Origin: an uncultured Bacteroidota bacterium
GTDB lineage: Bacteria; Bacteroidota; Bacteroidia; AKYH767-A; JABDAW01
DNA: 64,000 nt
NCBI GenBank assembly: GCA_903844645.1
Contig: CAIMUP010000098.1
Span: 7,571-71,570 of the forward strand
Direction of reading: 5' to 3'
Shown: positions 2,386 through 60,411 of the stretch, piece after piece
How the letters are laid out: every line of letters begins with the position of its first letter
How positions within the stretch are numbered: the first letter of the stretch is position 1
Notes under the pieces: model-generated
The model's database searches: none
Told to the model about the DNA's origin: nothing
What the model saw: the letters and a program-made list of their open reading frames with translations, nothing else
Position numbers and translations under genes: made by a program

Positions 2386-2763
2386 GACACGAAGTGGAAA
2401 TGTTAAGACACGAAGTAGTCAGGATGAGACATGAAGTAGTCAGGATGAGACTGTTCTTCGTCAGGATGAGACTCATCTTCGCCAGGATAAGACACAAAGT
2501 GGCCAGGATGAGACTGTTCTTCATCAGGATGAGACTGTTCTTCATCAGGAACAGACTGTTCTTCATCAGGAACAGACAGTTCTTCATCAGGAACAGAAGG
2601 AAACCAACGCGGATAAGAAGGAAAATAGCCACGTTAAGAAGGAAACCAACGCGGATAAGAAGGAAAGTAGCCACGTTAAGAAGGAAACCAACGCGGATAA
2701 GAAGGAAAGTGGCCACGTTAAGAAGGAAAGTAACGCGGATAAGAAGGAAAGTAACAGATGAGA
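2386..2763. repeat. 21-bp tandem array A, 18 units
   Basis: Units start at 2386+21n with no slip. Three unit families: gacacgaagtagtcaggatga, gactgttcttcatcaggaaca, and alternating gaaggaaaccaacgcggataa / gaaggaaagtagccacgttaa. Confidence 0.95.
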
Positions 2764-2870
2764 ACTTTGTTTAACCCATGTTCTTTCATCTTTTTTTCAC
2801 ATTCAGTCATCTTTTTTTCATTTTAAAGATGAAAAGTTCGCGGTTAGTTAATAAAAATTCCAAAAATAGT

Positions 2871-2878
2871 TACCTTTG
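2871..2878 (+). promoter_or_regulatory. -7 box TACCTTTG
   Basis: Matches TAnnTTTG, 32 nt upstream of ATG 2910. Confidence 0.45.
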
Positions 2879-2909
2879 CCGAACATACTAATTAAAATCT
2901 CCAGAAACG

Positions 2910-3638
2910 ATGCTAAAAAACCTGCCCCTAACTATCAACAAAAAACTTTTCGGTTTCCTCTTTTTAGGATTCATATTGGCAACCATCGTCGGCACCCTAT
3001 CCTTCGCGGTCGGAGGATTCATCGTCGCGAAATCATTAGGAATTGATGCCGGAATAAACTATCAAGGCTACCGAACCCGCATCGGCGAAAAAGAATTATG
3101 GGAGCACAGAATATATTTAATCAACATCCAACAAAAATACCACGACGAATTAAAAAATAACATAGATTTCCCCGAAAAATCAGCCTACGAACAACAATTA
3201 TTAATGCATAAAACCGCGGTGCGAGACAACAAATACATGCATTACGGAGCTACCGGCTTCCCAATAATAATCGGCACATTCGGTTTCATTCATCTTTTTT
3301 TATTTCGAAGAAAATACCAAGGAATAACTACCCTGAATTTCAAAAAATGGTTCTTCATATTCGTCACTTTGTTTTGGTTACGATCCATGTATGTTTTATT
3401 CGGATCCGGAATCTATTTATCCATCGCCTACCCCGATTATCACGGCGGTATTTTACCCTTTAATAATTCCGCATTCATCATCATTACCGGGCTTTTCGGC
3501 ACTATCGTTTTGAAAATAGTAGTCTTTAAATTCATACCCATATCCGAAAGATTAACCTTCCTCTTATCCGGCTTCGCGGGAGGCATCATCGGGTTTGGTT
3601 TATGGTTCTCCATCCTCGGGAAATACTTGCTACCATAA
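2910..3638 (+). CDS. multi-pass membrane protein, unknown function
   Basis: 242 aa with several hydrophobic helices and no recognisable catalytic motif. Confidence 0.5.
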   Translation: MLKNLPLTINKKLFGFLFLGFILATIVGTLSFAVGGFIVAKSLGIDAGINYQGYRTRIGEKELWEHRIYLINIQQKYHDELKNNIDFPEKSAYEQQLLMHKTAVRDNKYMHYGATGFPIIIGTFGFIHLFLFRRKYQGITTLNFKKWFFIFVTLFWLRSMYVLFGSGIYLSIAYPDYHGGILPFNNSAFIIITGLFGTIVLKIVVFKFIPISERLTFLLSGFAGGIIGFGLWFSILGKYLLP

Positions 3639-3684
3639 TATTTTATTTTCATACTATCGAAGAATAAATGCGCGGATATAATTG

Positions 3685-3692
3685 TATCTTTG
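3685..3692 (+). promoter_or_regulatory. -7 box TATCTTTG (trpS)
   Basis: Matches TAnnTTTG, 19 nt upstream of ATG 3711. Confidence 0.5.
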
Positions 3693-3710
3693 CGCCCTAA
3701 TATTTTAAGT

Positions 3711-4706
3711 ATGGAAACAGTCGTAAGTGGTATTCGCTCCACCGGGAACTTGCATCTCGGTAACTATTTTGGTGCGATAAAGAATTTTTTAAAGATGCAA
3801 CATGAAAATAATTGTTACTTTTTCATTGCCGATTATCACTCCCTCACCACGCATCCTAATCCCTCCGACCTGCACGATAAAGTGAAGCAAGTTTTAGTAG
3901 AATATCTCGCCTGCGGCATAGACCCCGAGGCAGCAACCATCTACATCCAGAGCGATTTACCAGAGATTGCCGAGCTGTATTTATTGATGAATATGAATGC
4001 CTATATCGGCGAGCTGGAAAGGTGTACATCCTTCAAAGAAAAGATACGAAAACACTCCGATAATATTAATGCCGGTTTGCTTACATATCCTGTTTTGATG
4101 GCAGCCGATATTCTTATCCACCGTGCACATAAAGTCCCTGTTGGTAAGGATCAGGAACAACATCTGGAGATGACGAGGCAGTTCGGAAATCGCTTCAACA
4201 GGATTTATTCGGTTGATTATTTCCCCGAACCGGTTGCGTTTAATTTCGGGACAGAACTGGTTAAGATTCCGGGATTAGATGGCAGCGGAAAAATGGGTAA
4301 ATCAGAGGGCGAAGGCAATGCGATTTTCTTGTTTGATACCGCAGTAGCCATCCGTAAGAAAGTGATGAAAGCCGTTACAGATACAGGTCCTACGCAACTG
4401 AATCAAACCAAGCCGGAGGTGATAGAGAATCTTTTTAAATTGATGAATGCCGTCTCGAAACCAGATACCATTTCCTATTTTGATGAACAATATAACGCCA
4501 TGACCATACGCTACGGCGACCTGAAGAAACAGTTGGCAGAAGATATGGTATTGTTCACCGCGCCATTCAGAGAGAAGATTCTGGAACTGCTTAGTAATAA
4601 CGATTATATCAATAAAGTCGTCCGCCAGGGAGCAGAAAAAGCCCACGAAAGCGGACGTAAAACCGTGAAGGAAGTACGAGAAATTATCGGGTTAAAATCA
4701 TTTTAG
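3711..4706 (+). CDS. trpS: tryptophan--tRNA ligase
   Basis: Class I synthetase motifs: GNLHLGNY (HIGH-like) and KMGKS (KMSKS). Start moved to ATG 3711 because the track start at 3690 lies inside the TATCTTTG box. Confidence 0.95.
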
Positions 4707-4771
4707 TTCAGGGAATAATCTTCCCTCCTTTTTTCTATCTTCGCCCCCTGATTAATTACATAAAAAAAACA

Positions 4772-7645
4772 ATGTCTGAATATACATTTGCCGACCGACA
4801 TATTGGTCCTGATGCCGCTGAAATAAAGGAAATGCTTGCTTCGATAGGGGTAAGCTCTTTGGATGAATTGATTGCCCAAACCATCCCGGAATCTATCCGA
4901 TTAAAGAAACCACTCAACCTCCCCGAAGCACAAAGTGAGTACGAGTTCCTGAATGAATTGCGCTTGATAGCAGCTAATAACAAGGTCTTCCATTCCTATA
5001 TCGGCATGGGATATTATAATACCATTATGCCTACTGTCATCCAACGAAATATCTTTGAAAACCCAGGCTGGTACACTGCTTATACTCCTTATCAGGCAGA
5101 GATTGCGCAAGGAAGATTAGAGGCTTTGCTGAATTATCAGACGATGATTATAGATCTAACAGGTATGGATATCGCGAATGCATCTTTACTCGATGAAGCT
5201 ACTGCTGCGGCTGAAGCCATGCATATTATGCACTCTAATTCTGATAATAAAACCGCCGATGGCAAGCATGCTAATTTGTTTTTTGTATCAGAAGATTGTT
5301 TTCCCCAAACGATTGATGTGTTGAAGACAAGGGCAAATCCATTAGGGATTGAATTGGTCATTGGCAACCATCATTCACATAAATTTGATGAAAGATATTT
5401 CGGTGCATTGATTCAATATCCTGCCAGCAGCGGGGAGATTTACAACTATGCTTCTTTTGTAAAGGATGCTCATACATTGCATATTCAGGTTGCTGTTGCC
5501 GCAGATTTGATGAGTCTTTGTTTACTCACTCCGCCCGGTGAATGGGGTGCGGATATTGTTCTTGGAAACACGCAACGCTTCGGTGTTCCGATGGGGTATG
5601 GTGGTCCTCACGCCGCGTTCTTTGCGGCTAAAGAACATTACAAAAGAACCATGCCCGGAAGGATTATAGGTGTCTCTCAAGATGCTCATGGAAACCGTGC
5701 CTTGCGAATGGCTTTGCAAACTCGCGAGCAACATATCCGCAGGGATAAGGCGACTTCAAATATTTGTACAGCACAGGTTCTTCTCGCTGTCATTGCAGGG
5801 ATGTATGCAGTATATCATGGTCCGGCGGGCTTGAAAGCTATTGCAAAAAGAATACATGATAACACCACTGTTCTTGCTACTACGCTGAAGAGTTTGGGTT
5901 ATGAGATATTAAATAAAACATATTTCGATACTATTAATATCAGCGTTACCAAGGATCAAAAGACAAACATAAATTCCTTAGCATTGAAGCAGGGAATTAA
6001 CTTTAATTACATTCATGAAGGACGTATTTCTATTAGCATTGATGAGATAACTACTTTGAAAGATTTGAAGATAATCCTCTCCATTTTTGCTTTGGCGAAT
6101 GCTAAGGGAGCGAAAGATTATTCTATAAAAAATCCCTCGACTATCATTCCTTCTTATCTTGCAAGGACATCTTCTTACCTGACTCATCCAGTATTTAATA
6201 CGCATCATTCAGAGACTGAAATGCTTAGGTACATCACGAAGTTAGAGAACAAAGATTTATCTTTGAATCACAGTATGATTGCTCTCGGTTCCTGCACTAT
6301 GAAGCTGAATGCGACATCAGAGATGATGCCTTTGAGCTGGAGAACATTCAGTTATATTCATCCATTCACTCCGCTCGATCAAGTGAAAGGATATAGTCAA
6401 GTCATTAAAGAATTGGAAGGATTTCTTTGTGAGATTACTGGCTTTGATGGAGTTTCTTTGCAGCCGAATTCCGGTGCGCAGGGAGAGTATGCAGGCTTAT
6501 TAACGATAAGAGCTTATCATCACAGCAGAAAGGATTTCCATCGTAATGTTGTTCTCATTCCTCAATCGGCACATGGTACTAATCCCGCAACTGCCGTGAT
6601 GTGTGGGATGAAAGTTGTCGTCGTGAAATGCGAAGGAGAAGGTGATATTGACATTAATGATTTAAGAGAGAAAGCAACTGCTAACAAAGACAATCTTGCC
6701 GCTCTCATGGTTACCTATCCTTCTACACATGGGGTATTCGAGGAAGGTATTTCCGAAATTACAAAAATCATTCACGAGAATGGTGGACAAGTTTATATGG
6801 ATGGCGCGAACATGAATGCACAAGTTGGCTTGACAAACCCTGCGATGATTGGTGCCGATGTCTGCCATATTAATCTTCACAAAACATTTTCCATTCCTCA
6901 TGGTGGTGGTGGTCCGGGTATGGGTCCTATTGGTGTTGCGAAACATTTGGTTCCGTTCCTTCCTGGGCATGCTGTGGTGAAAGTTGGAGGTGCTACACAT
7001 GCTGTTTCTGCGGCTCCTTGGGGTAGTGCGAGCATCCTTTTAATTTCTTATGCTTACATGAAAATGCTTGGTGGAACCGGTTGTACAAATGCTACGAAGA
7101 TCGCGATTCTGAATGCAAATTATATCAAATCAAAATTAGAATCTCACTATCCTGTTTTATATACTGGAGCGAATGGACGAGTTGCGCATGAAATGATTCT
7201 CGATTGCCGTCAATTCAAATTAGCATCTGGTGTGGAAGTTGAAGACATTGCTAAAAGGCTGATGGATTATGGCTTTCATGCTCCTACAATTTCATTCCCT
7301 GTTGCAGGAACTATCATGGTGGAGCCTACCGAAAGCGAGCCTAAAGAAGAATTGGATAGGTTCATTGATACCTTAATTCATATCCGAAAGGAGATTCAAG
7401 AAATAATTGATGGCAAAGCCGACAAGGTGGATAATGTCTTGAAGAATGCGCCACATACTCCCTTCGAGGCGATGGCTGATGAATGGAAACATTCCTATTC
7501 CCGCACAAAGGCAGTCTATCCTGCTCCATGGATCAAAGAAAATAAATTCTGGGTTCCGGTGGGCAGAGTGGACAATGCTTTTGGCGACCGCAACTTCGTT
7601 TGTGCCTGCCCTCCGATAGAAAGTTATACCGAGGAATTGGTATAA
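4772..7645 (+). CDS. gcvP: glycine dehydrogenase (decarboxylating), single-chain P protein
   Basis: 957 aa. Full-length match by eye to GcvP, including the NLHKTF PLP-lysine motif. Confidence 0.97.
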
Positions 7646-7771
7646 TCACAACCCTTGTGGTTGTCCGATAATACTATTCAGCATCTTTTTATTGCTGCAC
7701 CGCAAGGGCGGATGCAATCATAAAAGGAATAGGTCGGGATTACAAATCCCGATCAGCGGGATAGTAGGAGA

Positions 7772-7993
7772 TCAATGAACAGTAGCATCATTACCAGATG
7801 TTCCGCCGGCAGATTGAATACCCCAACCATTCTGTTCGGTACCAATCATAATATAACTATCACCGCTCGCATTGTCGGTAAAGGTAATGGTTTCCGTACC
7901 ATCTGGTGCGATGGAATCAGATTTGATAATGATATTTTTTCCACTCGTGTGCACTCCTATTGATAGGAGAATTGCAATAATAATTTCTAACAT
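7772..7993 (-). CDS. small hypothetical protein with N-terminal hydrophobic segment
   Basis: 73-aa ORF. A TATTTTTG box on the minus strand at 8030-8037 lies 36 nt upstream of the ATG. Confidence 0.4.
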   Translation of the reverse strand: MLEIIIAILLSIGVHTSGKNIIIKSDSIAPDGTETITFTDNASGDSYIMIGTEQNGWGIQSAGGTSGNDATVH

Positions 7994-8135
7994 AGCTTAT
8001 AGTTTTTGATTATTTTTTACAAAAATAGGGAATGTTATTATACCATCCAAATTTATTTTAAAAACCTTTCATTCTTCACTATTATTTTTTCACAATTCAC
8101 TTCCTTTCCTATCATTGCATCTTATAATTAAGGAT

Positions 8136-8510: not shown

Positions 8511-8676
8511 TTTTTAAGTTTTTCTTTCAGGCTTATTTATAGGAGTCGGTAAATTTTTGTAAAGCATTGCGATCAGTGGCTTTAAGAATACATTCCAGAA
8601 GATAAAGCGGAAAGGAAATAGTACTGTTTTCAGGATTTCTGCCAGAAATAGTTTTGGCTGGCATGTACTATCGCCG

Positions 8677-8684: not shown

Positions 8685-8732
8685 CGCCATCGAATTAAAA
8701 AATGAGAACCGAAAGATTAGATAATAACTTGA

Positions 8733-8894
8733 GAAACGTTCCGGAAGCTCTTGGGGGACGACCGGAAGGGGTTCGGGGACGCCAGGAAGGGCTTGGGGGA
8801 CGACCGGAAGGGGTTCGGGGACGCCAGGAAGGGGTTCGGGGACGACAGGAAGGGCTTGGGGGACGACAGGAAGGGCTTGGGGGACGACAAAAAC
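8733..8894. repeat. 21-bp tandem array B, about 7 units, G-tract rich
   Basis: ggggacgaccggaaggggttc / ggggacgccaggaagggcttg, with units starting at 8754, 8775, 8796, 8817, 8838, 8859 and 8880. Confidence 0.95.
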
Positions 8895-8925: not shown

Positions 8926-9690
8926 ATGGCAAGAATTAAAAAAGTATTAGTATTAAGAGATTATGTAGAAATTACAAACCATCAGGAGTTGTTGGACTTT
9001 ATCAATCAATGTATATCCAAAGGTTTGTTGGCGGCATTATTCATGAATCCGAATATCCTGACCGCCTTTTATACATCAGGCAGCACTGCGGCGGCAGCTC
9101 TTTTGCTTGCCATTAATAATTATAAAGCGTCTCCTATCAAGGCCAATTTGGACATCGTGGAGGCGAAAATGGCGTTGGTAGTTATTTGGTTAGACAGTTA
9201 TTCTGATCAGGTAGAAACCATTTCTAATGCACCTGCTAACCGCACTACTCGCGAGGAAGCTGGTGCTAACATCGAGCTTGCCGGTCTTCAACATCAGGCA
9301 TTAACGGCAACAAAAAAAGGAACGCCAGTAACGCCAACTTTTACTGCAAAAAATACCGGCGGCGGCGGCAATGCCGAAATAGAAGTAACGAATGGCAAAA
9401 CCGTGAAACCAAACCTGACCCACTTTATATTAGTGGAAATCCCCGTCGGCACCGACCCCGTAACCCACGAACCGATACTTCCGGCAGTGGTATCTTTACG
9501 AGCTAACGGACAGATTTCTGTGAGTTGTACCGTGCCCGTTCGGGTAGAAACCATCGCGATGGCAGGCAAAGGAAAAATCACGAAGATAAGCCACCTCGCT
9601 ACCGGCATCAGCTACAATGTCTATGGCATTACCAAAAACGGCAAGACATTAATCAGTGCCCTGTCGGCAGCTGTACTGCTGAAGATGTAA
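8926..9690 (+). CDS. hypothetical protein, helical N-domain plus FN3/Ig-like C-domain
   Basis: 254 aa with no signal peptide. The C-terminal beta-rich part ends in a pattern like the last FN3 strands (HLATGISYNVYGITKNGK). Confidence 0.6.
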   Translation: MARIKKVLVLRDYVEITNHQELLDFINQCISKGLLAALFMNPNILTAFYTSGSTAAAALLLAINNYKASPIKANLDIVEAKMALVVIWLDSYSDQVETISNAPANRTTREEAGANIELAGLQHQALTATKKGTPVTPTFTAKNTGGGGNAEIEVTNGKTVKPNLTHFILVEIPVGTDPVTHEPILPAVVSLRANGQISVSCTVPVRVETIAMAGKGKITKISHLATGISYNVYGITKNGKTLISALSAAVLLKM

Positions 9691-11081: not shown

Positions 11082-11084
11082 GGC

Positions 11085-12005: not shown

Positions 12006-12125
12006 GTAATTAAAACTAATGATAACGGCGGCAAAGAAACTAAAATTTATGATTTCAAATTCACCTTAAACAGCCGATTGCCCCTTCAAATTCTCTCTTT
12101 TACAGGTAAATTCCGCCTCCGCCAG

Positions 12126-12337
12126 CTCCAGTTTTTAATTAATTGGCTTGGGTGGGAGTCCAACCGGCTTGGATTTGAGTTTCACTGGAGTCGGTTAGCC
12201 GCTGACTGGAGTCGGTTGGAGCTTAACTGGAGTCGGTTAGAGCATAACTGGAGTCGGTTAGAGCTTAACTGGAGTCAGTTAACGATTAATTGGCTCCGGT
12301 TGGACTCCCACCCAAGCCAATTAATCGAAAACTGGAG
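12126..12337. repeat. 21-bp tandem array C enclosed by a 42-bp inverted repeat
   Basis: ctggagtcggtt cores at 12185, 12206, 12227, 12248 and 12269. Arms 12126-12167 and 12296-12337 are reverse complements at 40 of 42 positions. Confidence 0.95.
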
Positions 12338-12419
12338 CCGTTTTGAATAAGATTTCGACGCCATTCCCAATCATCCAATTATTAACTTCGGCTTAACTAC
12401 AACTTATGCCGCCAATATC

Positions 12420-15487: not shown

Positions 15488-15739
15488 TTACAGACTATTA
15501 ACGTGTTTCGTCAATGACGATTTCAGATTCCCAGCCTTGTTCTTGTGGATAACATTTTTCTTCGCTAATTTATCCAACATGCCCGATACTTTCGGAAGCA
15601 ATTCCGCAGCCTTCGCCTTGTCTTTGGTAGTCCTCAAAACCTTTACCGCATTACGCGTGGTTTTGTCTTGATACTTGTTCAACACATGTTTTGCTTCGTT
15701 CGACCTGATCCTTTTTATGGACGATTTATGATTTGCCAT
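15488..15739 (-). CDS. rpsT: 30S ribosomal protein S20
   Basis: 83 aa, [13 protein letters not shown]-terminus, highly basic. Confidence 0.95.
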
Positions 15740-15928: not shown

Positions 15929-16192
15929 AAAAAACTGTACAGAGCCAATGTCGAGGTCAGCATTTGCCAAAAAAAATTGATTTGGTGGTATGCCGCGAAT
16001 GACATTGGCTCTATACAGTTGTATACCACCAATGTCGAAGGCAGCATCGCCTCTATACAGTTGTATGGAGCCAATGTCGAAGGCAGCATTGGCTCTATAC
16101 AACTGTATAGAGCCAATGTCATTCGCGGCATACCACCAAATCAATTTTTTTTGGCAAATGCTGACCTCGACATTGGCTCTGTACAGTTTTTT
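15929..16192. repeat. large palindrome D: perfect 97-bp inverted arms around a 70-bp spacer made of 42-bp repeats
   Basis: 15929-16025 is the exact reverse complement of 16096-16192 (checked block by block). The track shows the same peptide MIWWYAANDIGSIQLY on both strands. Confidence 0.97.
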
Positions 16193-16286: not shown

Positions 16287-16802
16287 ATGAAAAAGATAGT
16301 CGCCATATTCGTAGCCCTCCTCCTCCTGTTTAATACCATCGGGATGCTGGTATTTTATTGGGGAGAAATGGAAAATTGCGAAGCCATCGCGTGGAATAAA
16401 ATTGCTCACAACGATTTTAATGACGATGCCCTGATTCATTTTTCATCTAATGATAAAAACTTTTCTTTGATAGAAGACCATGAAATTTTGAGCAATGGAA
16501 TTTTGTATGACATCGTAAAAACCGAATCGAAGAATGGCGTAACGATTTATTCCTGCTTTGATGATAAAAAAGAGAGCGGTTTTTGGAATGGAATATCACA
16601 ATTAGGGAAAAACAGTTCCGAGCAATCCTCCACACCCGTTAAGAATAATGCACCAGAGGTTTTGAAATATATCGGTAACGAAAAAACATTCGATTACTCC
16701 TTTATATATAAGGACGATTTGTCGCAGTATGGTTTAATGGATTTTGGGTTCTATTATCAAAGTCCATACAACGAAATTTCTGCGCCTCCCCCAAAAGTTT
16801 AA
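16287..16802 (+). CDS. hypothetical membrane-anchored protein
   Basis: 171 aa with a single N-terminal TM helix, directly upstream of a TonB-dependent receptor gene. Confidence 0.55.
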   Translation: MKKIVAIFVALLLLFNTIGMLVFYWGEMENCEAIAWNKIAHNDFNDDALIHFSSNDKNFSLIEDHEILSNGILYDIVKTESKNGVTIYSCFDDKKESGFWNGISQLGKNSSEQSSTPVKNNAPEVLKYIGNEKTFDYSFIYKDDLSQYGLMDFGFYYQSPYNEISAPPPKV

Positions 16803-16833
16803 TCGGTTTAATTTTTTAAATTCTTCTCAATAT

Positions 16834-16914
16834 CCTGACAGGTTTTTCTCCTGTCAGGTATAAATTATTTTCCAATAAAAATTATCAAACCTGACGGGAG
16901 AAAAACCCGTCAGG
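16834..16914. repeat. REP-like hairpin pair in inverted orientation
   Basis: cctgacaggtttttctcctgtcagg (16834-16858) and cctgacgggagaaaaacccgtcagg (16890-16914), separated by 31 AT-rich bp. Confidence 0.85.
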
Positions 16915-16938
16915 ATAACAAATTTAAACTTAAATAAA

Positions 16939-21077: not shown

Positions 21078-21088
21078 CATTAAATTTT

Positions 21089-21340
21089 CATCGGTTTTAA
21101 AAATTGGTTCATCGGTTTGAGAATTAATTTCTTCTTACTTAAAACTACTTTCTTCTATTAATAAAGGAACTTGTTCTTTGGCTTTTGTACTTTCTTCGGT
21201 GTGTGTTTTAGTATTCTCGTGGGGTGTTTTATTTTATACTTATGTTGTTTTATTTTATACCATGGTTGTTTGAATTTCTACGGGGTGTTTTCGAGCTTGT
21301 ACGATGGCTGTTTGGGTTTATACGTCCTGGACCCGTGTTT
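21089..21340. repeat. degenerate 21-bp array L
   Basis: catcggttt at 21089 and 21110. tgtttt cores at 21204, 21225, 21246, 21267, 21286, 21309 and 21336. Confidence 0.7.
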
Positions 21341-28246: not shown

Positions 28247-28401
28247 ATGAAAAGCGCTGCAAAAATTTCCAAAATCCTGTTACGCTTTTTTACAAACCTG
28301 TTACGCTTTTCATAGGACCTGTTCCGCTTTTTATAGAACCTGTTCCGCTTTTTCACAAACCTGCTACGCTTTTACCAAAAGCTACTACGTTTTTAGTATA
28401 A
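28247..28401. repeat. 21-bp tandem array E, 6 units, with inverted leader
   Basis: cctgttacgctttt cores at 28276, 28297, 28318, 28339, 28360 and 28381. atgaaaagcg at 28247-28256 is the reverse complement of cgcttttcat within unit 2. Confidence 0.9.
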
Positions 28402-31415: not shown

Positions 31416-31583
31416 AATATTTGGGCTTAAATATCCAATATTTGGACTTAAATATTCAATATTTGGAAGGAAATATTCAATATTTAAGTCCAAACATTGA
31501 ATGTTTGGAAGGAGAATCTGAATGTTTGGAGGGAAAATTTGAATGTTTGGAGGGAGAATTTGAATGTTTGGAGGGAAAGATGA
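31416..31583. repeat. 21-bp tandem array F, 8 units
   Basis: aatatttgg / aatgtttgg cores at 31416+21n. Internal perfect 16-bp inverted repeat: 31441-31456 versus 31479-31494. Confidence 0.95.
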
Positions 31584-33504: not shown

Positions 33505-33570
33505 TATTGAAGTGCATCACCAACGCGAAATAATGCATCATCAATTCAAAATAATGCATACTCAACATAA
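33505..33570. repeat. short 21-bp array M, 3 units
   Basis: tgcatca / tgcata cores at 33513, 33534 and 33555. Confidence 0.5.
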
Positions 33571-33661
33571 ACAAATTTATCTTTCACATGATAACCCCTT
33601 ATAAAATCAGTTCAATGACGGAGGTATGATTTTGCAAACCGCTATGCCGAAAAATCGCTCG

Positions 33662-35400: not shown

Positions 35401-35652
35401 AAAGATAGCGACCTTCCATTTAAAGATAGCGACCTTCCTTTTAAAGATAACGACCTTCGATTTAAAGATAACGAACTTCCATTTAAAGATAACGAACTTC
35501 CATTTAAAGATAACGAACTTCCTTTTAAAGATAACGAACTTCCTTTTAAAGATAACGAACTTCCTTTTAAAGATAGCGAACTTCCTTTTAAAGATAACGA
35601 ACTTCCTTTTAAAGATAGCGAACTTCCTTTTAAAGATAACGAACTTCCATTG
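35401..35652. repeat. 21-bp tandem array G, 12 units, highly homogeneous
   Basis: aaagataRcgaMcttccWttt units at 35401+21n. Confidence 0.97.
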
Positions 35653-40691: not shown

Positions 40692-41063
40692 TTATCCTCC
40701 CCAAAAAAACTTATATCTTTCCAAAAATTTCTCCTTTTGCTCCCGATATTTTTCTTTTAGAAGATTCATTCTATGTATGCGTTTATTAAAAATACTTTGA
40801 AGAACGACTACTAATGGCATTCCAACAAACCATTGAAACATTGCGACTCCTAACCAAACATTCCCACATCTTATTTGATTAGGTTCTGGAGGATAAAAAA
40901 AGTTATCAATTCGCCAGCTCCAATTGGGATAAATAAGCATTAGCCAAGCAAATAAAATTGTTGAAATAGAACAAAAGATATAGGTTACCTTTCCTTTATT
41001 CAAAAGGCGTATAATTAAATTAATCAGCAATTGTCCAATAACAAATATTAATATCTCAAGCAT
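40692..41063 (-). CDS. hypothetical membrane protein
   Basis: 123 aa with 3 hydrophobic helices. Confidence 0.45.
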   Translation of the reverse strand: MLEILIFVIGQLLINLIIRLLNKGKVTYIFCSISTILFAWLMLIYPNWSWRIDNFFYPPEPNQIRCGNVWLGVAMFQWFVGMPLVVVLQSIFNKRIHRMNLLKEKYREQKEKFLERYKFFWGG

Positions 41064-41230
41064 CGTTCTTTAACTTTCTTCATCCCAAAAAATCATTAAC
41101 CATCTTCATTTTTCTTGTGGCAAAAGTAGGAAAGGGTGGGGAAATGGTGTTTTGGGGCGTTTAATAAAAAGTATTCTTCTCCAAAATCGGGCTTCTAAAC
41201 CAAGTTTTAAGTGTAAAAAGGGGGCGAAAT

Positions 41231-41440
41231 CACTTTTGGAACATAAGAGATAATCCTAAACCTTCAAAAGACTTCTTTTGGAGCATTATGATTATATACA
41301 TTGTTTCAAAAGACTTCTTTTGGAGCAACTAGATTAAAAAACTTTTTCCATGTACTTGTCCTGAAAAAAGTTTTTTAATCTAGTTACTCCAAAAGAACAT
41401 TTTTGAAGGTTCACAATTATCTCTTTTGTTCCAAAAGAAC
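41231..41440. repeat. long imperfect palindrome K built from 42-bp units
   Basis: Inner arms 41317-41348 and 41363-41395 match at about 31 of 33 positions. Outer arms match at about 85 percent. The left side carries one extra 42-bp unit (tcaaaagacttcttttggagc at 41264 and 41306). Confidence 0.85.
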
Positions 41441-45661: not shown

Positions 45662-45874
45662 TATTTTATAAGCGTTGCGACGGGGAGGACGCATCGTCGG
45701 AATATTTACTCGAAATGTGAATGTCATGGCAAGAAAAATTTCAAAATTTTTGTTCGCGGCCATCATCTGTTTGATTATGGATTTTATCCGATGACACCCA
45801 TACTGGATTTGTGGATTTTCAGACACATTTTTTTCTATTATGATGCAGCCCTACGGGGGTTTGCGAGATTTTAC

Positions 45875-46020
45875 AGGGATGCTATTAGTATAGAGATAGA
45901 TTTTGTCAAGCTCCGTAGGGATGCTATTATTGGACTACTTTCATAATTCATCACATGGGATTGCGACGGCATTGTTGGGGAATACCACGGCATTGCAGGG
46001 GATTTGAAATCTCCAGTTTC
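45875..46020. repeat. weak 21/42-bp periodic region N
   Basis: agggatgctatta at 45875 and 45917 (42 bp apart). ggga...ggcattg units at 45957, 45978 and 45999. Confidence 0.5.
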
Positions 46021-49019: not shown

Positions 49020-49228
49020 AGGCTCGGTTTCGCATTCGTAATTCTCTTAAGGCGCGTCTTCTGCAGGCAGGTATTTAACTTTTGGAAGGCATCGGGGAGC
49101 CAAATTCCCGATCATTAAATAGGGAGCAAAAGGCTCTTTAAACGAATAAATCGTCTGTGGAGCATTTTAATTTAAAGGCAGTTACCCCCTACTACCTATC
49201 ATCAAAATATCAAATAATGCCGCCAATC

Positions 49229-49354
49229 ATTGATAAAAACCCCGCTGGGATTGATATTTACCCCGCTGGGATTGATGAAAACCCCGCTGCCAGAGATAAA
49301 AACCCCGTTGGCATTGATATTTACCCCGCTGGGAACGATATTTACCCCGCTACT
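49229..49354. repeat. 21-bp tandem array H, 6 units
   Basis: attgatatttaccccgctggg-type units at 49229+21n. Confidence 0.95.
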
Positions 49355-49499
49355 TTTTAAGGAGTTTCGGCCATCATTTAATAAAATATGTCCCCTAATA
49401 ACAGAGCTTCCATTTAGATTGTCTGAACGGTTGAATTAGCGGAATCAGGCATCCTTTTTAATACTAATAGTTATATTATTAATTATCCATCCTATTTTA

Positions 49500-52417: not shown

Positions 52418-52761
52418 AATTGGTGTTTTCTGCTCCTTTCAGAGGATATTAGCCGTTGCAACTCTTAATTGTTGATAACTTTTTCCCATTTCCATTAACC
52501 GTTCTGCTTCCCTCTGTTTACGGGGATATAGGGGTGTGAAGGTTGTAGTATTGTAACTATTTATTCTTCTTATTAATGCCTGGTTCTTACAGAGAATCTG
52601 AAATTCCCCTTTCGATGCTCGGTTTGAAACCCTGATGGTAGCGGTCTGAATGTAAACAGACCAAATTTTCTTGCAACAATTCCGGTAGTTGTTGCAGCTA
52701 CGCAAAGGGTAGGTTTCTTCCGATTTTTTCCTTCCCTTTTCACGCAGGTGGGTGGATTATT

Positions 52762-52975
52762 TACGGCAGCGGGGATATTATCTGCGTCAGCGGGGATACT
52801 TTTTGCTCCGGCGGGGATACCTTTTTGCCCAGCGGGGATACTTTCTGCGTCAGCGGGGATACCTTTTTGCCCAGCGGGGATACTTTCTACGCCAGCGGGG
52901 ATACCTTTTTGGTCAGCGGGGAACCCCGCCAGCTCAAATAATATCCCCGCTGGCGCAAATAATCTCGTACTTCAT
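52762..52975. repeat. 21-bp tandem array I, 8 units plus 2 inverted terminal units
   Basis: gcgggg cores at 52769+21n (8 times). Then ccccgc at 52924 and tatccccgctgg at 52942-52953 lie in opposite orientation and still in phase. Confidence 0.95.
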
Positions 52976-55004: not shown

Positions 55005-55032
55005 AAGGTTCTTCATCAATCATAAAACAAAA

Positions 55033-55061
55033 AAGCGGTACATAATGTACTGCTTTTTTTA
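55033..55061. terminator. bidirectional hairpin terminator
   Basis: agcggtaca-taa-tgtactgct followed by ttttttt. An A run precedes it, serving the minus strand. Confidence 0.7.
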
Positions 55062-55083
55062 TTTCAGCAGCCTGTTTCTTTTT

Positions 55084-55319
55084 TTAATAGCTGATCAATT
55101 GCAACAACATCTGCTCGAACCGTGCTTTGGGGAGGAAATTATTTTCCAAGGCATCCGACATCGGCACAGGGGTATCCAAACTCGCAGCCCCCATCACAGG
55201 GGCATCGAGATAGTGGAAACAATTTTCGGCTATGTATTAACGCTCCCTTCACCGCAAAATGCTTTTATCACTGTACTATACCGATTTGGGAATCCCAAAA
55301 AATCTTAAACCAATTATTG
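55084..55319 (-). pseudogene. remnant of the 3' end of a 2-oxoacid dehydrogenase E1 beta (transketolase C-terminal domain) gene
   Basis: The minus-strand frame 55236..55084 reads YIAENCFHYLDAPVMGAASLDTPVPMSDALENNFLPKARFEQMLLQLISY-stop. This matches the conserved E1-beta C-terminus pattern F-x-[FY]-LDAP...D-x-P-x-P...LE-x-N-x-x-P. Upstream sequence to 55319 is broken by stops and frame changes. Confidence 0.55.
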
Positions 55320-57302: not shown

Positions 57303-57320
57303 AAGGAACAGAACTCCTTC

Positions 57321-58142
57321 TCAATCCATATCAGGAAGAGCAAGCAAAGGAATATGAGTATGAAACGCTAATTTCTTAGTGTTGCTTTCATGGATTATAT
57401 TCTCCACGAAGGAATGTTTACGCGGAATATTCACGATAATATCAGCATCAAAAGTAGTTAGATAATCATTGATTGATTCCGCAATATCTTCCCCTTCTAT
57501 TTGATGATACGAAGTATTAATTCCTTGTAATACGCTCGAATAATCTATTGCCAATAGAGCTTCTTGCTCAGCATTTTCAAGTTTATGAATCATGTTAACG
57601 ATGGCAACTTCGCAATTAAAAAGGGAAGCTATTTCTTTTAAGAAATTCAAGGTGGCGGGATTTGAAACACCACTGTTATCGCTTGCAAAAAGTATCTTCG
57701 TAGGCACTTTAAATACTGCATGTTCGGGAACAATAAGCACCGGATGATTCGCTTTTCTTATCACACCAGTGGCAACACTTCCTATCACCAATTCACTGAT
57801 GAGACTGACGCCGCGAATACCTAATACCGTCAAATCAGCACCAAGATAATTCATTTTTCTTACGATCTCTTCAACAGAATATCCGGGCGTGCTTACAACA
57901 ATAATATCTATGTGGTGTTTCTCTTTTAATTCCTTGACTATTTCGTTCATCTTGGAATTATTCATACCTTCCAATTGATCGGGAGACATAATAATAACCG
58001 GCATTTCAGTAGTCGTTATAGGTACTTCAAACACGTGGAAGAGTACCACTTTTGCTTTAATATGTTCAGCTATATTAACTGCGTAATGAAGTGCATTAAA
58101 GGAGTTTTCAGAGTAATCTATCGGGACGAGAATAGTTTTCAT
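57321..58142 (-). CDS. universal stress protein (tandem USP domains)
   Basis: ILVPIDYS N-terminus and two USP halves. Paralog of 47550-48410. Confidence 0.88.
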   Translation of the reverse strand: MKTILVPIDYSENSFNALHYAVNIAEHIKAKVVLFHVFEVPITTTEMPVIIMSPDQLEGMNNSKMNEIVKELKEKHHIDIIVVSTPGYSVEEIVRKMNYLGADLTVLGIRGVSLISELVIGSVATGVIRKANHPVLIVPEHAVFKVPTKILFASDNSGVSNPATLNFLKEIASLFNCEVAIVNMIHKLENAEQEALLAIDYSSVLQGINTSYHQIEGEDIAESINDYLTTFDADIIVNIPRKHSFVENIIHESNTKKLAFHTHIPLLALPDMD

Positions 58143-58199
58143 TTCTTATATCTTATATTATTATACCCGACAAAATTAGAAAATCTTTGGTTAATATAT

Positions 58200-59012
58200 T
58201 CACAACTCTTGCAAGAGATTGGTGAACAGCGATGTTACTTTTCCTTCTGCCTCGGAGGCTACTTTCAATACCTCTTCATGGGTAGTTTCTTTCACTTCAT
58301 CTGGTATGCCAGCATTGGTAATTATGGCTACGGCGAAGCATGTTATACCCAGATGCCGGGCTGTTATCACTTCTGGCACAGTGGACATTGCTACGGCATC
58401 GGCACCTATCGTTAGGAGGTATTTATATTCTGCCCGAGTCTCTAAAGATGGTCCTGCGACGGCAACAAATACACCTACATGATAATGAATTCCTAATGCC
58501 TCTGATATCAATACTCCTTTCTGAATTAATTCTTTGGAATATGGTGCGCTCATATCGGGAAAGCGAACGCCATAATCTGAATTATTTGGTCCTATTAACG
58601 GATTGCCGGGAAGAAGATTGATATGGTCTTCAAAGATCATAATATCGCCGACACGATATGCCGAATTCAAGCCGCCACTAGCGCATGATAGTAATAAAGT
58701 ATCTATCCCTAATAGCTTCAATACCCTTATAGGCAGAGCAAGTTGCTGCATTGTGTATCCTTCATAGAAATGGAATCGTCCTTGCATTACCACCACCTTT
58801 TTACCTCCTAATTTCCCGAAAACCAAGCGTCCTTCATGTCCTTCTACTGTTGATATTAGGAAGTTAGGTATCGCTGTATAATGTAGAATATATTCTACTT
58901 CCATCGCATTCACCAACCCCGCCATGCCACTACCTAAAACGATGCCGACTGTGGGTGTTTCCGGCACTTTAAGCCTTATAAATTCAGCTATTTGTTGTAT
59001 TATTTCTGACAT
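58200..59012 (-). CDS. purine nucleoside phosphorylase (PNP family I, trimeric type)
   Basis: GIVLGSGMAG, GRFHFYEG and AVAMSTVPEV motifs. Confidence 0.93.
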   Translation of the reverse strand: MSEIIQQIAEFIRLKVPETPTVGIVLGSGMAGLVNAMEVEYILHYTAIPNFLISTVEGHEGRLVFGKLGGKKVVVMQGRFHFYEGYTMQQLALPIRVLKLLGIDTLLLSCASGGLNSAYRVGDIMIFEDHINLLPGNPLIGPNNSDYGVRFPDMSAPYSKELIQKGVLISEALGIHYHVGVFVAVAGPSLETRAEYKYLLTIGADAVAMSTVPEVITARHLGITCFAVAIITNAGIPDEVKETTHEEVLKVASEAEGKVTSLFTNLLQEL

Positions 59013-60066
59013 AAGTTACGATTTGGTCATTAAATAATGTTTCATCATCCGGGATAAATACGGTCGTGATAGGTACATAATAAATCGGAGTCATCATTCC
59101 TAATAATTCTCGCGGCATATCTGTAAAACGCATCAAATCCTTCTCGGTAGTAAGGATTACCTTCTTCGCATTCGGAATATTATTGAAGTTTTTGGCAATC
59201 TTAATTACATCCTTCCCGGAAAAATTATGATGATCCGGAAAAAACAATTCATCAATCGCAGGACAAATTGTTTTCAGATGATTTAATAACACCATCGGCT
59301 TCGCAATACCTGTTATTAAAAGAATATGATAGGTGCTCAAATCCAGCATGACACTGTCGCGGGGCGTTGCAGTTGCATCCAAATCATACATCATAATATC
59401 GCCGTATTGTATATAACTGAAATAAAGTGTTTGATGTTCATCGAGACGAAGATAAGCCTTGATTTTTACTCTTTCATCCTCCGTAATATCTTTTTTACAT
59501 TTGCTGATCACAATAATATCAGCCCTTTTCTTCCCCGATTTAGGCTCCCGAAGATTACCAGCAGGAAGCATGAAATCTATAGTATAAACCGCCGCATATT
59601 CTATCAATAAAATATTCATCCCAGCCCTGACGGAGCGGTGTTGATAAGCATCATCCAACAATATTAATTGCAGATGATAATTCTGTATCAAAGCCCGAAT
59701 CCCGACAGCACGTTTCTCGCAAACTGCGACCGTCACATCCGGAAACTTTTGTTTATATTGCTTCGGTTCATCTCCCACCAACAGGCTTTTGACATGCGGC
59801 GAAGCGATAACGAATCCCTTAGTCCTGCGACCATATCCGCGACTAAGGGTTGCTATCTTAAAGTCATCTTTTAATAACTTAATCAGGTACTCTGTCATAG
59901 GCGTTTTGCCCGTTCCTCCTACCACCAAATTACCTATCGTAATCACCGGAAACGGGAACGATTCGCTATGAAAAAACTCTTTATCAAACAATATATTCCG
60001 TATCCTCATCACGATAGAATAGACCAGCGAAACGGGCAACAATAAGAGGCGAAAAAGTTTTATCAT
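58984..60066 (-). CDS. lpxK: tetraacyldisaccharide 4'-kinase
   Basis: VGNLVVGGTGKTP P-loop, 360 aa. Overlaps the PNP gene start by 29 nt. Confidence 0.92.
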   Translation of the reverse strand: MIKLFRLLLLPVSLVYSIVMRIRNILFDKEFFHSESFPFPVITIGNLVVGGTGKTPMTEYLIKLLKDDFKIATLSRGYGRRTKGFVIASPHVKSLLVGDEPKQYKQKFPDVTVAVCEKRAVGIRALIQNYHLQLILLDDAYQHRSVRAGMNILLIEYAAVYTIDFMLPAGNLREPKSGKKRADIIVISKCKKDITEDERVKIKAYLRLDEHQTLYFSYIQYGDIMMYDLDATATPRDSVMLDLSTYHILLITGIAKPMVLLNHLKTICPAIDELFFPDHHNFSGKDVIKIAKNFNNIPNAKKVILTTEKDLMRFTDMPRELLGMMTPIYYVPITTVFIPDDETLFNDQIVTYVRNNTTNS

Positions 60067-60212
60067 ATCGCTGGCGAAGATATAAATACAACCGGTTAAG
60101 ATTCAAGGTTTAAAGTTTAAGGCAGATGCCGCATTCTACGAACTTTAAATCTTAAACTTCAGGCTTTAAACTCTCATCACAAGTGAAATAGTATTGATAA
60201 TGATACGATTTT

Positions 60213-60411
60213 TGTGAATTGGAAGGAAATTTTTGTGTGCGAAACCCGTTTTTTTTGTGTTTCAAAGGCAAATTTTTGTGTATCAGACCTAAATTCTTGT
60301 GTATCAAACCTCAAAACTTGTGTATCAAAAGCCAATATTTGTGTATCAAAACTCAATATTTGTGTATCAAAATTGAATAAATCTCCTGAAGTTTTCACCT
60401 TTGATACACAA
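60213..60411. repeat. 21-bp tandem array J, 8 units, with inverted cap
   Basis: tgtgtatcaaa cores at 60213, 60234, 60256, 60277, 60298, 60319, 60340 and 60361. tttgatacaca at 60400-60410 is the reverse complement of the core. Confidence 0.93.

What the first reader, a model, noticed from the sequence alone, without database searches (positions are those of the whole stretch)
2386..60411. Phase-locked 21-bp tandem arrays fill almost every long intergenic spacer
I counted 11 clear arrays: A 2386, B 8733, C 12126, D 15929, L 21089, E 28247, F 31416, G 35401, K 41231, H 49229, I 52762 and J 60213 (D and K are 42-bp versions). There are also 2-3 weak ones: 33505, 45875 and 61663. Each array has a different unit sequence, yet all share a period of exactly 21 bp, or 42 bp in D, K and part of A. 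Phase is held without drift for up to 18 units, even where the unit sequence switches family. Units typically have a conserved core of about 11 bp and a more variable part of about 10 bp. Arrays A, C, D, E, F, I, J and K are flanked by or end in an inverted copy of their own core. Nearly every intergenic spacer longer than 300 bp in this window is long because it holds such an array, about 3 kb in total. 21 bp is two turns of B-DNA, so the cores would sit on one helix face. It is also 7 codons, so copy-number change never shifts a frame. No cas, transposase or integrase gene is present. Because the sequences are unrelated between loci, this does not look like a dispersed mobile family. I do not recognise the pattern as a described element class. 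Possible explanations, all inference: a length-measuring local duplication process; selection for phased protein-binding or DNA-curvature platforms; or structured transcripts.
Basis: partly seen in the sequence, partly recalled or inferred. Interest (0 to 1): 0.85.

Follow-up and report, generated by a model that had tools for sequence, protein, structure and literature searches.

The report
Intergenic tandem arrays locked at 21 bp
In one uncultured group of Bacteroidota, most long gaps between genes hold a tandem repeat array whose sequence differs at every site and in every species but whose unit is always exactly 21 or 42 bp (two or four turns of the DNA helix), a pattern I could not find described anywhere.

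Summary
Almost all tandem repeats in the window have period 21, 42 or 63. 8-mer recurrences spike only at lags 21, 42, 63 and 84. 14 of 19 spacers over 300 bp carry the signal.

The window is ordinary housekeeping chromosome of an uncultured Bacteroidota lineage. Independent assemblies reproduce arrays K, H, I and J exactly, so they are not artefacts.

Contigs from at least four related species show the same rule. In 147 kb, all 21 arrays have period 21 or 42. In 2.4 Mb of other genomes, 2 of 33 do.

Unit sequences are unrelated between loci. They are replaced between species at the same spacer, and copy number varies between strains.

The arrays are not coding, not a dispersed MITE family, not an Rfam family and not uniformly foldable. 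They occur in tandem, divergent and convergent spacers.

Best reading (about 0.4): locally born, fast-evolving, DNA-level minisatellites whose period is held at two helical turns, acting as one-face or bent platforms between transcription units. Main rival (about 0.25): a lineage-specific process that duplicates DNA in 21-bp steps. Neither is shown. I found no published description.

The parts
2380..2757 (.). Array A. 18 units of 21 bp in one register. Two families: GGATGAGAC..., then a 42-bp alternation GGATAAGAAGGAAA / CGTTAAGAAGGAAA.
   Evidence: z 11.1. Flanked by 18-nt inverted repeats at 2354-2371 and at 2781-2798 / 2802-2819.
8743..8889 (.). Array B. 7 units, GGAAGGGCTTGGGGGACGACA, G-rich on the + strand. 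Ends 36 bp before the ATG at 8926.
   Evidence: Not foldable beyond chance. The two exact TAnnTTTG boxes lie upstream of the array.
12121..12338 (.). Array C. About 5 direct units, ACTGGAGTCGGTTAGAGCTTA, enclosed by 43-nt inverted arms (12125-12167 / 12296-12338, 95% complementary). Divergent spacer.
   Evidence: z -14.
15929..16192 (.). Array D. 42-bp units arranged as a 131-nt-arm palindrome (89% complementary). Lies between rpsT (-) and the gene starting at 16287 (+).
   Evidence: (z -35).
21080..21310 (.). Array L. About 11 degenerate T-rich units still in 21-bp register. Convergent spacer; starts 2 bp after a stop codon.
   Evidence: z 6.4. No open reading frame in any of the six frames.
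28272..28397 (.). Array E. 6 units, core CCTGTTACGCTTTT. Divergent spacer next to a SusC-like gene.
   Evidence: z 3.8.
31416..31583 (.). Array F. 3 units AATATTTGGACTTAAATATTC, then 1 inverted unit, then 4 units AATGTTTGGAGGGAGAATTTG, all in one register. Lies downstream of pheS.
   Evidence: An unrelated 21-bp array occupies the same spacer in relatives L170-L172. The spacer is about 56-57 bp with no array in L167 and L169, and TRF finds no array there in L087.
33511..33573 (.). Short or weak 21-bp array, about 3 units (AATGCATCAnCAA). Convergent spacer.
   Evidence: z 4.9.
35401..35652 (.). Array G. 12 units, AAAGATAACGAACTTCCTTTT, 95% identical. Convergent spacer next to gldC.
   Evidence: Two short-read contigs end inside it.
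41233..41437 (.). Array K. 42-bp units arranged as a long palindrome (76-nt arms). Lies upstream of a conserved promoter.
   Evidence: z42 4.5; z -12 to -16. The same spacer in L167 carries different 42-bp arrays.
45860..46006 (.). Weak 21/42-bp array. Convergent spacer.
   Evidence: z 3.0.
49221..49367 (.). Array H. 6-7 units, core ACCCCGCTGG. Upstream of pntA.
   Evidence: A TAnnTTTG box lies between the array and the ATG.
52755..52966 (.). Array I. 8 direct units, core CAGCGGGGATAC, followed by 2 inverted units. Downstream of pntB.
   Evidence: The core is the reverse complement of the H core. The array is absent in relative L173.
60232..60427 (.). Array J. About 7 direct units, core TTGTGTATCAAA, with an inverted copy at 60400.
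62383..62423 (.).
   Evidence: 85% matches.

Best explanation
These are non-coding, DNA-level minisatellites specific to one clade of uncultured Bacteroidota.

**How they form and change (largely shown)**
- Each array is born in place from local sequence.
- It grows and shrinks by whole units through slippage or unequal exchange.
- It often acquires inverted units or becomes a palindrome, probably by template switching.
- Over evolutionary time its sequence is replaced completely.

**What is held constant**
- Only the period: 21 bp, or its double 42 bp.
- 21 is the smallest integer that equals a whole number of B-DNA turns (2 x 10.5).

**How I think they work (inferred)**
- The constraint is helical geometry. 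An array presents the same feature on one face of the helix every two turns.
- That gives a long in-plane bend, or a cooperative one-face binding lattice for an abundant DNA-binding protein of low sequence specificity.
- The arrays then serve as architectural or insulating spacer DNA between transcription units, mostly just upstream of core promoters.
For: **The period is exact**
-.

**The rule holds across loci and species**
- All 21 arrays in 147 kb from five species-level lineages have period 21 or 42, about 143 arrays per Mb.
- In 2.42 Mb of other genomes, 2 of 33 arrays have period 21, about 14 arrays per Mb.

**Unit sequences are unrelated**
-.

**At the same spacer, sequence turns over but the period stays**
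- K against L167: different 42-bp arrays sit next to a promoter and 5' region that is 95% conserved over 74 bp.
- F against L170: different 21-bp arrays downstream of pheS.
- New unit families arise inside old arrays in the same register (A and F; L174).

**Whole-unit copy-number change**
- L170 and L171 differ by two separate 21-bp units but by only 4 SNPs in 8.8 kb.

**The 42-bp arrays fit a two-turn rule**
- D and K have unrelated halves. This fits 'multiples of two turns' better than 'copies of one ancestral 21-mer'.

**The phenomenon is at the DNA level**
- No codon-phase pattern, and variation falls in blocks of core plus spacer.
- Few open frames, none in L or K. No Pfam hit for two array-spanning ORFs, across A and G.
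- Folding is not general.
- Arrays occur in tandem, divergent and convergent spacers, and exact -7 boxes lie between array and start codon for six arrays.

**No sign of free-floating 21-bp duplications**
- There are no isolated near-perfect 21-bp duplications outside array-bearing spacers, coding DNA included. This weakly argues against an untargeted 21-bp duplication process.

**Any 21-bp array is predicted to bend**
- Wedge models give roughly 8-23 degrees of in-plane bend per unit even for shuffled units.
Against: - No binding protein or function is shown.
- Natural units are not more curved than shuffled ones (mean percentile 0.48-0.56; the model parameters were recalled from memory). Unit-level curvature is therefore not under visible selection.
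- No motif is shared across arrays. GGA occurs in 13 of 18 units against 8.3 expected, p = 0.009 before correction for 32 tests.
- Arrays are dispensable at individual loci. F is absent in L167, L169 and L087, and I is absent in L173.
- Single-base indels do occur, about 5 events, so the register is not inviolable.
- Selection would have to act at hundreds of loci, which is demanding.
- A duplication process with a 21-bp ruler explains the same data more simply, if such a process exists.
Confidence: 0.4

Rival explanations
1. A mutational ruler. A clade-specific replication, repair or recombination activity duplicates DNA in quanta of exactly 21 bp, for example through cuts or template switches two helical turns apart. 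The arrays are neutral or selfish by-products that survive only where they do no harm, that is, between genes.
For: - The trait is confined to a narrow clade: present in the PheS >=81% group, and absent from the closest GcvP relative L001 and from nearly all of 2.4 Mb of other Bacteroidota.
- Sequences are arbitrary and unit bend is not optimised.
- Arrays occur in every spacer type.
- Presence or absence differs between close species, and copy number changes fast.
- After a 1-bp shift the array continues with a 21-bp period (L174 at 1940-2170).
Against: - I know of no enzyme or process with a 21-bp duplication quantum.
- There are no isolated newborn 21-bp duplications outside array-bearing spacers or in about 125 kb of coding DNA.
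- Young 42-bp arrays whose halves are unrelated (L174 8712-9063 at 94% identity; D; K) would need a second quantum.
- Arrays recur at the same spacers in different species.
Confidence: 0.25
2. A frozen period by descent. All arrays derive from one ancestral 21-bp satellite or satellite-bearing mobile element that spread through the spacers of the clade ancestor. Concerted evolution within each array then erased similarity between loci but passed on the unit length.
For: - Arrays sit at the same spacers in different species with different sequences.
- H and I, 3.4 kb apart, still share a 10-bp core.
- New families arise inside old arrays in register.
- A Bacteroidota precedent exists for a dispersed minisatellite-bearing MITE: BrickBuilt (PMC4596501).
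Against: - Spacers share no leader, tail or terminal repeat.
- Indels do occur. With complete sequence turnover, some of the 21 or more arrays should by now have a 20- or 22-bp period, and none does. This is a rough inference from typical bacterial indel-to-substitution ratios.
- 42-bp arrays show no trace of a 21-bp substructure.
Confidence: 0.15
3. Arrays of sequence-specific transcription-factor sites. Each array is an amplified set of head-to-tail operator half-sites for its own regulator. AraC/XylS-type and LytTR-type regulators, and ArgR boxes, bind sites with 21-bp centre-to-centre spacing (my own knowledge). The arrays would act in regulation or titration.
For: - Units have a conserved core of 9-14 bp plus a variable spacer.
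- Several arrays end in inverted copies, as iteron and operator sets do.
- Six arrays lie just upstream of core promoters.
- H and I share a core on both sides of the pnt operon.
Against: - This would need a separate regulator for almost every array.
- 5-18 sites per array is far more than the usual 2-3.
- No regulator gene is present in the window.
- Arrays also lie in convergent spacers (G, L).
- Cores are replaced between close species while the neighbouring promoter is conserved.
Confidence: 0.08
4. RNA-level elements: structured or repeat-bearing transcripts such as terminators, stabilisers, protein sponges or phased small RNAs.
For: - C, D and K fold far better than shuffles, and A, F, I and J moderately so.
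- Many arrays follow 3' ends of genes.
Against: - B, E, G, H and L fold no better than shuffles.
- C, D and E lie between divergent genes.
- No Rfam match.
- Nothing about RNA explains an exact 21-nt period.
Confidence: 0.05
5. Small genes encoding 7-residue repeat proteins, or an assembly artefact of k = 21 de Bruijn graphs.
For: - 21 bp is 7 codons.
- Gene callers placed ORFs over some arrays (L170 1607-1969).
- 21 is a default k-mer size in common assemblers (my own knowledge).
Against: **Against coding**
- L and K have stops in all six frames, and the mean is 2.2 open frames of 6.
- No codon-phase pattern. No Pfam hit for the two array ORFs tested. Some arrays are palindromic.

**Against an artefact**
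- Identical arrays appear in k141 MEGAHIT, scaffold-based and Logan assemblies of different samples.
- Units carry structured variants.
Confidence: 0.03

Closest known systems
Bacterial minisatellites / VNTR loci (prokaryote 'satellites', PMC6749651)
   Same: - Head-to-tail units of tens of bp.
- Imperfect copies and higher-order 42/63/84-bp structure.
- Whole-unit copy-number change between strains.
- Intergenic location.
   Different: - In the survey, median satellite density in each prokaryotic group is 0-3 per Mb, unit lengths are mixed, and many satellites lie inside genes (PMC6749651).
- Here there are about 140-200 arrays per Mb, all intergenic, and every one has period 21 or 42.
BrickBuilt, the minisatellite-bearing MITE of Porphyromonas gingivalis (PMC4596501)
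   Same: - Bacteroidota host.
- Always intergenic.
- Tandem units of about 20 nt without spacers.
- Small inverted repeats at the ends.
- Lies 49-591 nt from the neighbouring genes.
   Different: - BrickBuilt is one sequence family with a 23-nt unit, shared leader and tail, and 19 copies per genome.
- Here every locus has its own unit, there are no shared flanks, and the period is 21 or 42.
Tandem repeats of Borg elements (PMC9879509)
   Same: - Each repeat region has a unique sequence.
- Arises locally, evolves fast, specific to one genome lineage and rare in relatives.
- Some fold and some do not.
   Different: - Borg repeats are perfect copies.
- About half lie inside ORFs.
- Unit lengths are diverse, and only 14-38% of the intergenic ones are divisible by three.
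- Here the copies are 61-95% identical (TRF matches), all are intergenic, and there is one period.
Helically phased protein-binding repeats: plasmid iterons, and AraC/XylS, LytTR and ArgR operator pairs (my own knowledge)
   Same: - Direct repeats with a conserved core and a variable spacer.
- Centre-to-centre spacing of about 21-22 bp, which places sites on one face of the helix.
- Inverted copies often sit at one end.
   Different: - Those are 2-7 sites for one dedicated protein next to its gene, origin or promoter.
- Here there are 5-18 units, a different sequence at each of a dozen loci in 64 kb, no regulator or rep gene, and arrays also between convergent genes.
Heptanucleotide repeat systems (cyanobacterial STRR; TAACTGA repeats of Beggiatoaceae, cyanobacteria and some Bacteroidetes; PMC4679880)
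   Same: - Lineage-specific and abundant.
- Mostly intergenic tandem repeats of unknown function.
- 21 is 3 x 7.
- Other Bacteroidota loci fetched here do carry 7-mer-based arrays.
   Different: - Those have one or a few defined 7-nt sequences.
- Here there is no 7-bp sub-period at all: identity at lag 7 is 0.13-0.36, no higher than at the non-period lags 10 and 11. The sequences are unrelated.
C. elegans PATC / Helitron minisatellites tuned to the helical repeat (preprint 10.64898/2026.08.08.743475)
   Same: - Minisatellites whose period matches the DNA helical repeat.
- Proposed to act through DNA mechanics, as insulators, rather than through a sequence motif.
   Different: - Eukaryotic.
- About 10-bp A/T periodicity.
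- Derived from one transposon family.
- Acts on nucleosomal chromatin.

Membership tests
Minisatellite / VNTR | Head-to-tail copies of a 10-100-bp unit | tested here: met
Minisatellite / VNTR | Copy number differs between strains by whole units | tested here: met
   - L170 has 9.3 units and L171 has 11.3, through two separate 21-bp indels, against 4 SNPs in 8.8 kb.
- No variation was seen among the assemblies of the window strain, which are 99.97-100% identical.
BrickBuilt-type MITE with internal minisatellite | The same unit sequence at many loci | tested here: not met
   Cores are array-specific. The only shared one is the 10-mer of H and I.
BrickBuilt-type MITE with internal minisatellite | Shared leader and tail with inverted-repeat ends | tested here: not met
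   All-against-all BLAST of the 14 spacers gives only chance matches of <=24 nt.
Plasmid or phage iterons | Located at a replication origin next to a rep gene | tested here: not met
   The window is housekeeping chromosome (gcvP, trpS, pheS, rpsT, pntAB, lpxK, gldC, susC/D), with no rep gene.
LytTR or AraC/XylS operator repeats | Two or three direct half-sites about 21 bp apart, upstream of a regulated promoter, with a cognate regulator | tested here: not met
   - Spacing fits.
- But there are 5-18 units.
- Arrays also lie in convergent spacers.
- No regulator domain is present in the window.
CRISPR array | Repeats separated by unique spacers; cas genes nearby | tested here: not met
   - Units abut without spacers.
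- No Cas domains.
Heptamer repeats (STRR / TAACTGA type) | 7-nt unit | tested here: not met
   Identity at lag 7 and lag 14 is no higher than at the non-period lags 10 and 11 in every array, except a modest rise at lag 14 in the short array F1.
REP / BIME | A genome-wide family of similar imperfect palindromes | tested here: not met
   - Sequences are unrelated between loci.
- Five arrays are not palindromic.
Borg-type tandem repeats | Perfect copies; in ORFs as well as between genes; varied unit length | tested here: not met
   - 61-95% identity between copies (TRF matches).
- Intergenic only.
- A single period.
Known RNA families (Rfam 15) | Score at or above the family gathering threshold | tested here: not met
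   - No matches at gathering score.
- Only sub-threshold hairpin noise in E-value mode.
Heptad-repeat protein genes | An open frame across the array, codon-phased variation, and homologues | tested here: not met
   - No open frame in L or K.
- Block-wise variation rather than codon-phased.
- No Pfam hit for the two array ORFs tested.
Intrinsically curved (phased A-tract) DNA | Units more bent than expected from their composition | tested here: inconclusive
   - Natural units sit at mean percentile 0.48-0.56 of shuffled units (model parameters recalled from memory).
- The 21-bp period itself makes any unit's bend add up in one plane.

The most novel reading that the evidence does not exclude
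The clade has a repeat class defined by its period rather than its sequence. A protein or process that handles DNA in exact two-turn (21-bp) steps either creates these arrays (a molecular-ruler duplication mechanism) or reads them as a sequence-independent chromatin lattice. Intergenic DNA in these bacteria would then be organised by helical geometry rather than by motifs.
Probability: 0.3. Interest if true: 0.9.

Novelty: new variant of a known kind. Interest (0 to 1): 0.78.

Why it matters
- Bacterial repeat classes such as REP, BIME, MITEs, CRISPR, iterons and STRR are all defined by sequence. Here, only the unit length is conserved across loci and species.
- If the period is selected, this is a bacterial case of DNA mechanics or one-face lattices organising the spaces between genes. 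It would be directly testable with re-spaced arrays.
- If the period is produced by a mechanism, it points to an unknown duplication process with a built-in ruler.
- Practically, the arrays break short-read assemblies. Contigs end in array G, and the pntB contigs recovered from relatives are all short. They would also make excellent strain-typing markers for this uncultured lineage.

Tried and rejected
- **Coding for heptad peptides.** Rejected: stops in all six frames in L and K, block-wise variation, palindromes, and no Pfam hit for the two array ORFs tested.
- **Assembly artefact of k = 21.** Rejected for K, H, I and J: independent assemblies with other k values give identical arrays.
- **Hidden 7-bp or 10.5-bp sub-period.** None found.
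- **A motif shared across arrays.** GGA, CTTC and AGGAA are only nominally enriched and do not survive correction for multiple tests.
- **CsrA-like or Shine-Dalgarno-like GGA arrays.** Dropped for the same reason.
- **Bacteroidota -33/-7 promoter arrays.** The units do not contain TAnnTTTG. Exact boxes lie outside the arrays.
- **LytTR consensus.** Checked by eye in the E core only; it does not match. No LytTR gene is present in the window.
- **Dispersed MITE family.** No shared flanks.
- **Rfam, plasmid and phage similarity.** Nothing.
- **Selection for strong unit curvature.** Not supported.
- **Newborn 21-bp duplications outside arrays.** None in 147 kb.
- **Look-ups that returned no DNA.** The GcvP contig and P0122.
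- **L175 against L174.** The alignment breaks inside an array and is uninformative.
- **Literature.** Six searches found no description of the pattern.

Full report
**1. The observation**

Tandem Repeats Finder at score >=50 gives 32 rows in the window. 29 of them have period 21, 42 or 63.

An alignment-free check gives the same answer.
- 8-mers recur at lag 21 (496 times), 42 (480), 63 (261), 84 (239), 105 and 126. No other lag up to 130 exceeds 14.
- The signal is intergenic. 7-mer recurrences at lag 21 number 570 in 10.3 kb of spacer, against 24 in 53.7 kb of coding DNA. Lags 20 and 22 give 1 and 7 in spacers.
- Inside arrays of the window and four related species, 1791 of 1825 local 12-mer matches are at exactly 21 bp. 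About five single-base indel events are visible.
- There is no 7-bp or 10-11-bp sub-period.

Of 19 spacers longer than 300 bp, 14 have their best lag at 21 or 42, with z of 3.0 to 11. The twelve clear arrays total 2.54 kb.

- Twelve arrays are listed, not eleven.
- The array at 61663 is not significant.
- The inverted copy of the array's own core is confirmed for C, D, F, I, J and K. It is not confirmed for E. For A, the flanking inverted repeat is a different motif.
- The D spacer contains an rpsT gene.

**2. Context**

The window is ordinary chromosome.
- It carries gcvP, trpS, pheS, rpsT, pntAB, lpxK, an ABC transporter, an M13 peptidase, ETF, thiolase and sodA.
- It also carries Bacteroidota hallmarks: gldC, a SusC/SusD pair, a T9SS sorting tail, and TAnnTTTG -7 boxes.
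- No transposase, integrase, Cas, Rep or regulator domain was found. There are no tRNAs and no Rfam hits.
- The nearest species representative has only 69% GcvP identity. The nearest named PheS relatives, at about 72%, are Bacteroidales/Bacteroidetes MAGs.

**3. Not an artefact**

Contigs from five other samples, assembled with other methods (MEGAHIT k141, scaffolds, Logan), match window 35.4-61 kb at 99.97-100%. They give identical K, H, I and J arrays. Two contigs end inside the 95%-identical array G, as expected for short reads. The other arrays were not covered by an independent assembly.

**4. Relatives**

A PheS search shows a tight clade at >=81% identity, then a gap down to 72-75%. Contigs from clade members obey the same rule.
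- L087 has one array of 13.5 units.
- L169 has four arrays, of which three have at least 3 copies.
- L170-L172 have two arrays.
- L174 has four arrays, two of 21 bp and two of 42 bp.
- L167 has 42-bp arrays.

I counted arrays with period >=10 and at least 3 copies.
- In the clade: 147 kb, 21 arrays, all of period 21 (19 arrays) or 42 (2 arrays).
- In 2.42 Mb of other Bacteroidota and assorted genomes: 33 arrays, 2 of period 21. The few 21-bp arrays I inspected in that control set are mostly built from 7-mers.
- A more distant organism, L177 (57% M13 peptidase identity), has one 42-bp array upstream of the same gene. L176, L173 and L001 have none.

**5. Evolutionary behaviour**

- *Unit sequences are unrelated.* They are unrelated between loci, and the spacers share no flanks.
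- *At the same spacer, sequence is replaced but the period is kept.*
  - Upstream of a 74-bp promoter and 5' region that is 95% identical between the window and L167, the window has palindromic 42-bp array K. L167 has different 42-bp arrays with an AAGCTT core.
  - Downstream of pheS, the window has array F and L170-172 have an unrelated 21-bp array. In L167 and L169 the spacer is about 56-57 bp with no array, and TRF finds no array there in L087. So the spacers are long because of the arrays.
- *Copy number changes by whole units.* L170 and L171 differ by two separate 21-bp units and only 4 SNPs in 8.8 kb.
- *New families arise inside old arrays in register.* Examples are A1/A2 and F1/F2 in the window and the X-Y-X nesting in L174.
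- *Inverted units and whole palindromes are common*.

**6. What it is not**

- *Coding.* Variation falls in blocks, not in codon phase. On average 2.2 of 6 frames are open, and none in L or K. Two array-spanning ORFs, across A and G, have no Pfam hit.
- *RNA structure.* C, D and K (z -12 to -35) fold far better than shuffles, and A, F, I and J (z -2.0 to -9.2) moderately so. B, E, G, H and L do not. Arrays lie in tandem, divergent and convergent spacers.
- *5' UTR elements.* For A, C, E, H, I and K an exact -7 box lies between the array and the start codon. Those arrays are therefore upstream of the core promoter.
- *A MITE or REP family, iterons, CRISPR or heptamer repeats.* See the membership table.

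**7. Mechanism**

What is shown: arrays form locally, change by whole units, and turn over in sequence. What needs explaining is why 21 or more independent arrays in five species share one exact period.

Pure inheritance from one ancestral satellite is unlikely. Indels do occur. With complete sequence turnover, some arrays should have drifted to 20 or 22 bp, yet none has. This is a rough inference. In addition, the 42-bp arrays have unrelated halves. So a constraint acts on the period.

21 is the smallest integer equal to a whole number of helical turns (2 x 10.5). Only multiples of 21 keep long arrays on one face of the helix, and 21, 42, 63 and 84 are exactly the values observed.

- *My preferred reading (about 0.4).* A geometric constraint: the arrays are one-face lattices or in-plane bends that serve as architectural or insulating spacer DNA, probably read by an abundant protein of low sequence specificity.
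  - Wedge models predict roughly 8-23 degrees of in-plane bend per unit for any 21-bp repeat.
  - However, natural units are no more bent than shuffled ones (the parameters were recalled from memory). The case therefore rests on the period, not on unit design.
- *Main rival (about 0.25).* A clade-specific duplication process with a 21-bp ruler.
  - It fits the narrow distribution, the arbitrary sequences and the dispensability of individual arrays.
  - It has no known precedent.
  - I found no newborn 21-bp duplications outside array-bearing spacers in 147 kb.

**8. Comparison and novelty**

The closest known things are:
- bacterial VNTRs and satellites (PMC6749651);
- the BrickBuilt MITE minisatellite of P. 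gingivalis (PMC4596501);
- Borg tandem repeats (PMC9879509);
- helically phased operator and iteron repeats (my own knowledge);
- heptamer repeats (PMC4679880);
- as a functional analogy, C. elegans PATC minisatellites (preprint 10.64898/2026.08.08.743475).

None combines unique sequence at each locus, a strictly intergenic location, very high density and a single quantised period. Six literature searches found no description.

I rate it a new variant of a known kind (minisatellites). There is about a 0.3 chance that it reflects a categorically new ruler-type mechanism or lattice.

Noticed in passing
window 49221-49367 and 52755-52966: Arrays H and I share the 10-bp core CCCCGCTGGG in opposite orientation and bracket the pntAA-pntAB-pntB operon. 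They are the only two arrays in the window with a common core. This could mean a recent common origin, or one protein binding on both sides of the operon.
   Followed up: partly
window 16826-16922: A long hairpin (DNA fold -30.5 kcal/mol, z -8.7) lies in the short spacer before the TonB-dependent receptor gene. It is built from two copies of CCTGACAGG...CCTGTCAGG and is not in a 21-bp register. Rfam gives only sub-threshold miRNA-like matches.
   Followed up: partly
window 15497-15739 (-): A ribosomal protein S20 gene (rpsT, 81 aa, Pfam E = 1e-21) lies inside what looked like an 897-bp spacer. Array D therefore sits between divergent genes.
   Followed up: yes
window 41083-41156 vs L167 12434-12506: A 74-bp stretch containing a TACTTTTG -7 box and the 5' region of the gene at 40692-41063 is 95% identical between two species, while everything upstream of it (the arrays) is unrelated.
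   Followed up: partly
L081 and L082 ends; pntB contigs P0122-P0124 (2.8-6.2 kb): Short-read contigs end inside array G, and the pntB contigs recovered from relatives are all short. The arrays probably fragment assemblies of this lineage.
   Followed up: partly
L034 1764-1894, L013 5328-5423, L066 20546-20590, L004 15538-15582: Other Bacteroidota carry intergenic arrays built from 7-nt units (GTTAGCT, GTTGGCG, AGTTGGC and similar) that TRF reports as period 7, 14 or 21. This is a separate heptamer-repeat phenomenon.
   Followed up: no
L174 8470-9140: Nested arrays. A 42-bp family (AAGGCAATGTCATTTG core) is interrupted by nine units of a second 42-bp family at 94% identity, then resumes in the same register.
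   Followed up: partly
L167 2-3253: Six tandem paralogous genes of 174-177 aa with no Pfam domain lie in a close relative. The window has no counterpart.
   Followed up: no
window 8743-8889: Array B is strongly G-rich on the coding strand of its neighbours, with GGG, GGGG and GGGGG runs in every unit. It could form G-quadruplexes. It is the only array lying between the exact TAnnTTTG boxes and the start codon.
   Followed up: no
window 60488-60551: A 30-nt-arm hairpin (87% complementary) lies just after the stop codon of the gene at 60567-61580, in the same spacer as array J. It looks like a terminator.
   Followed up: no
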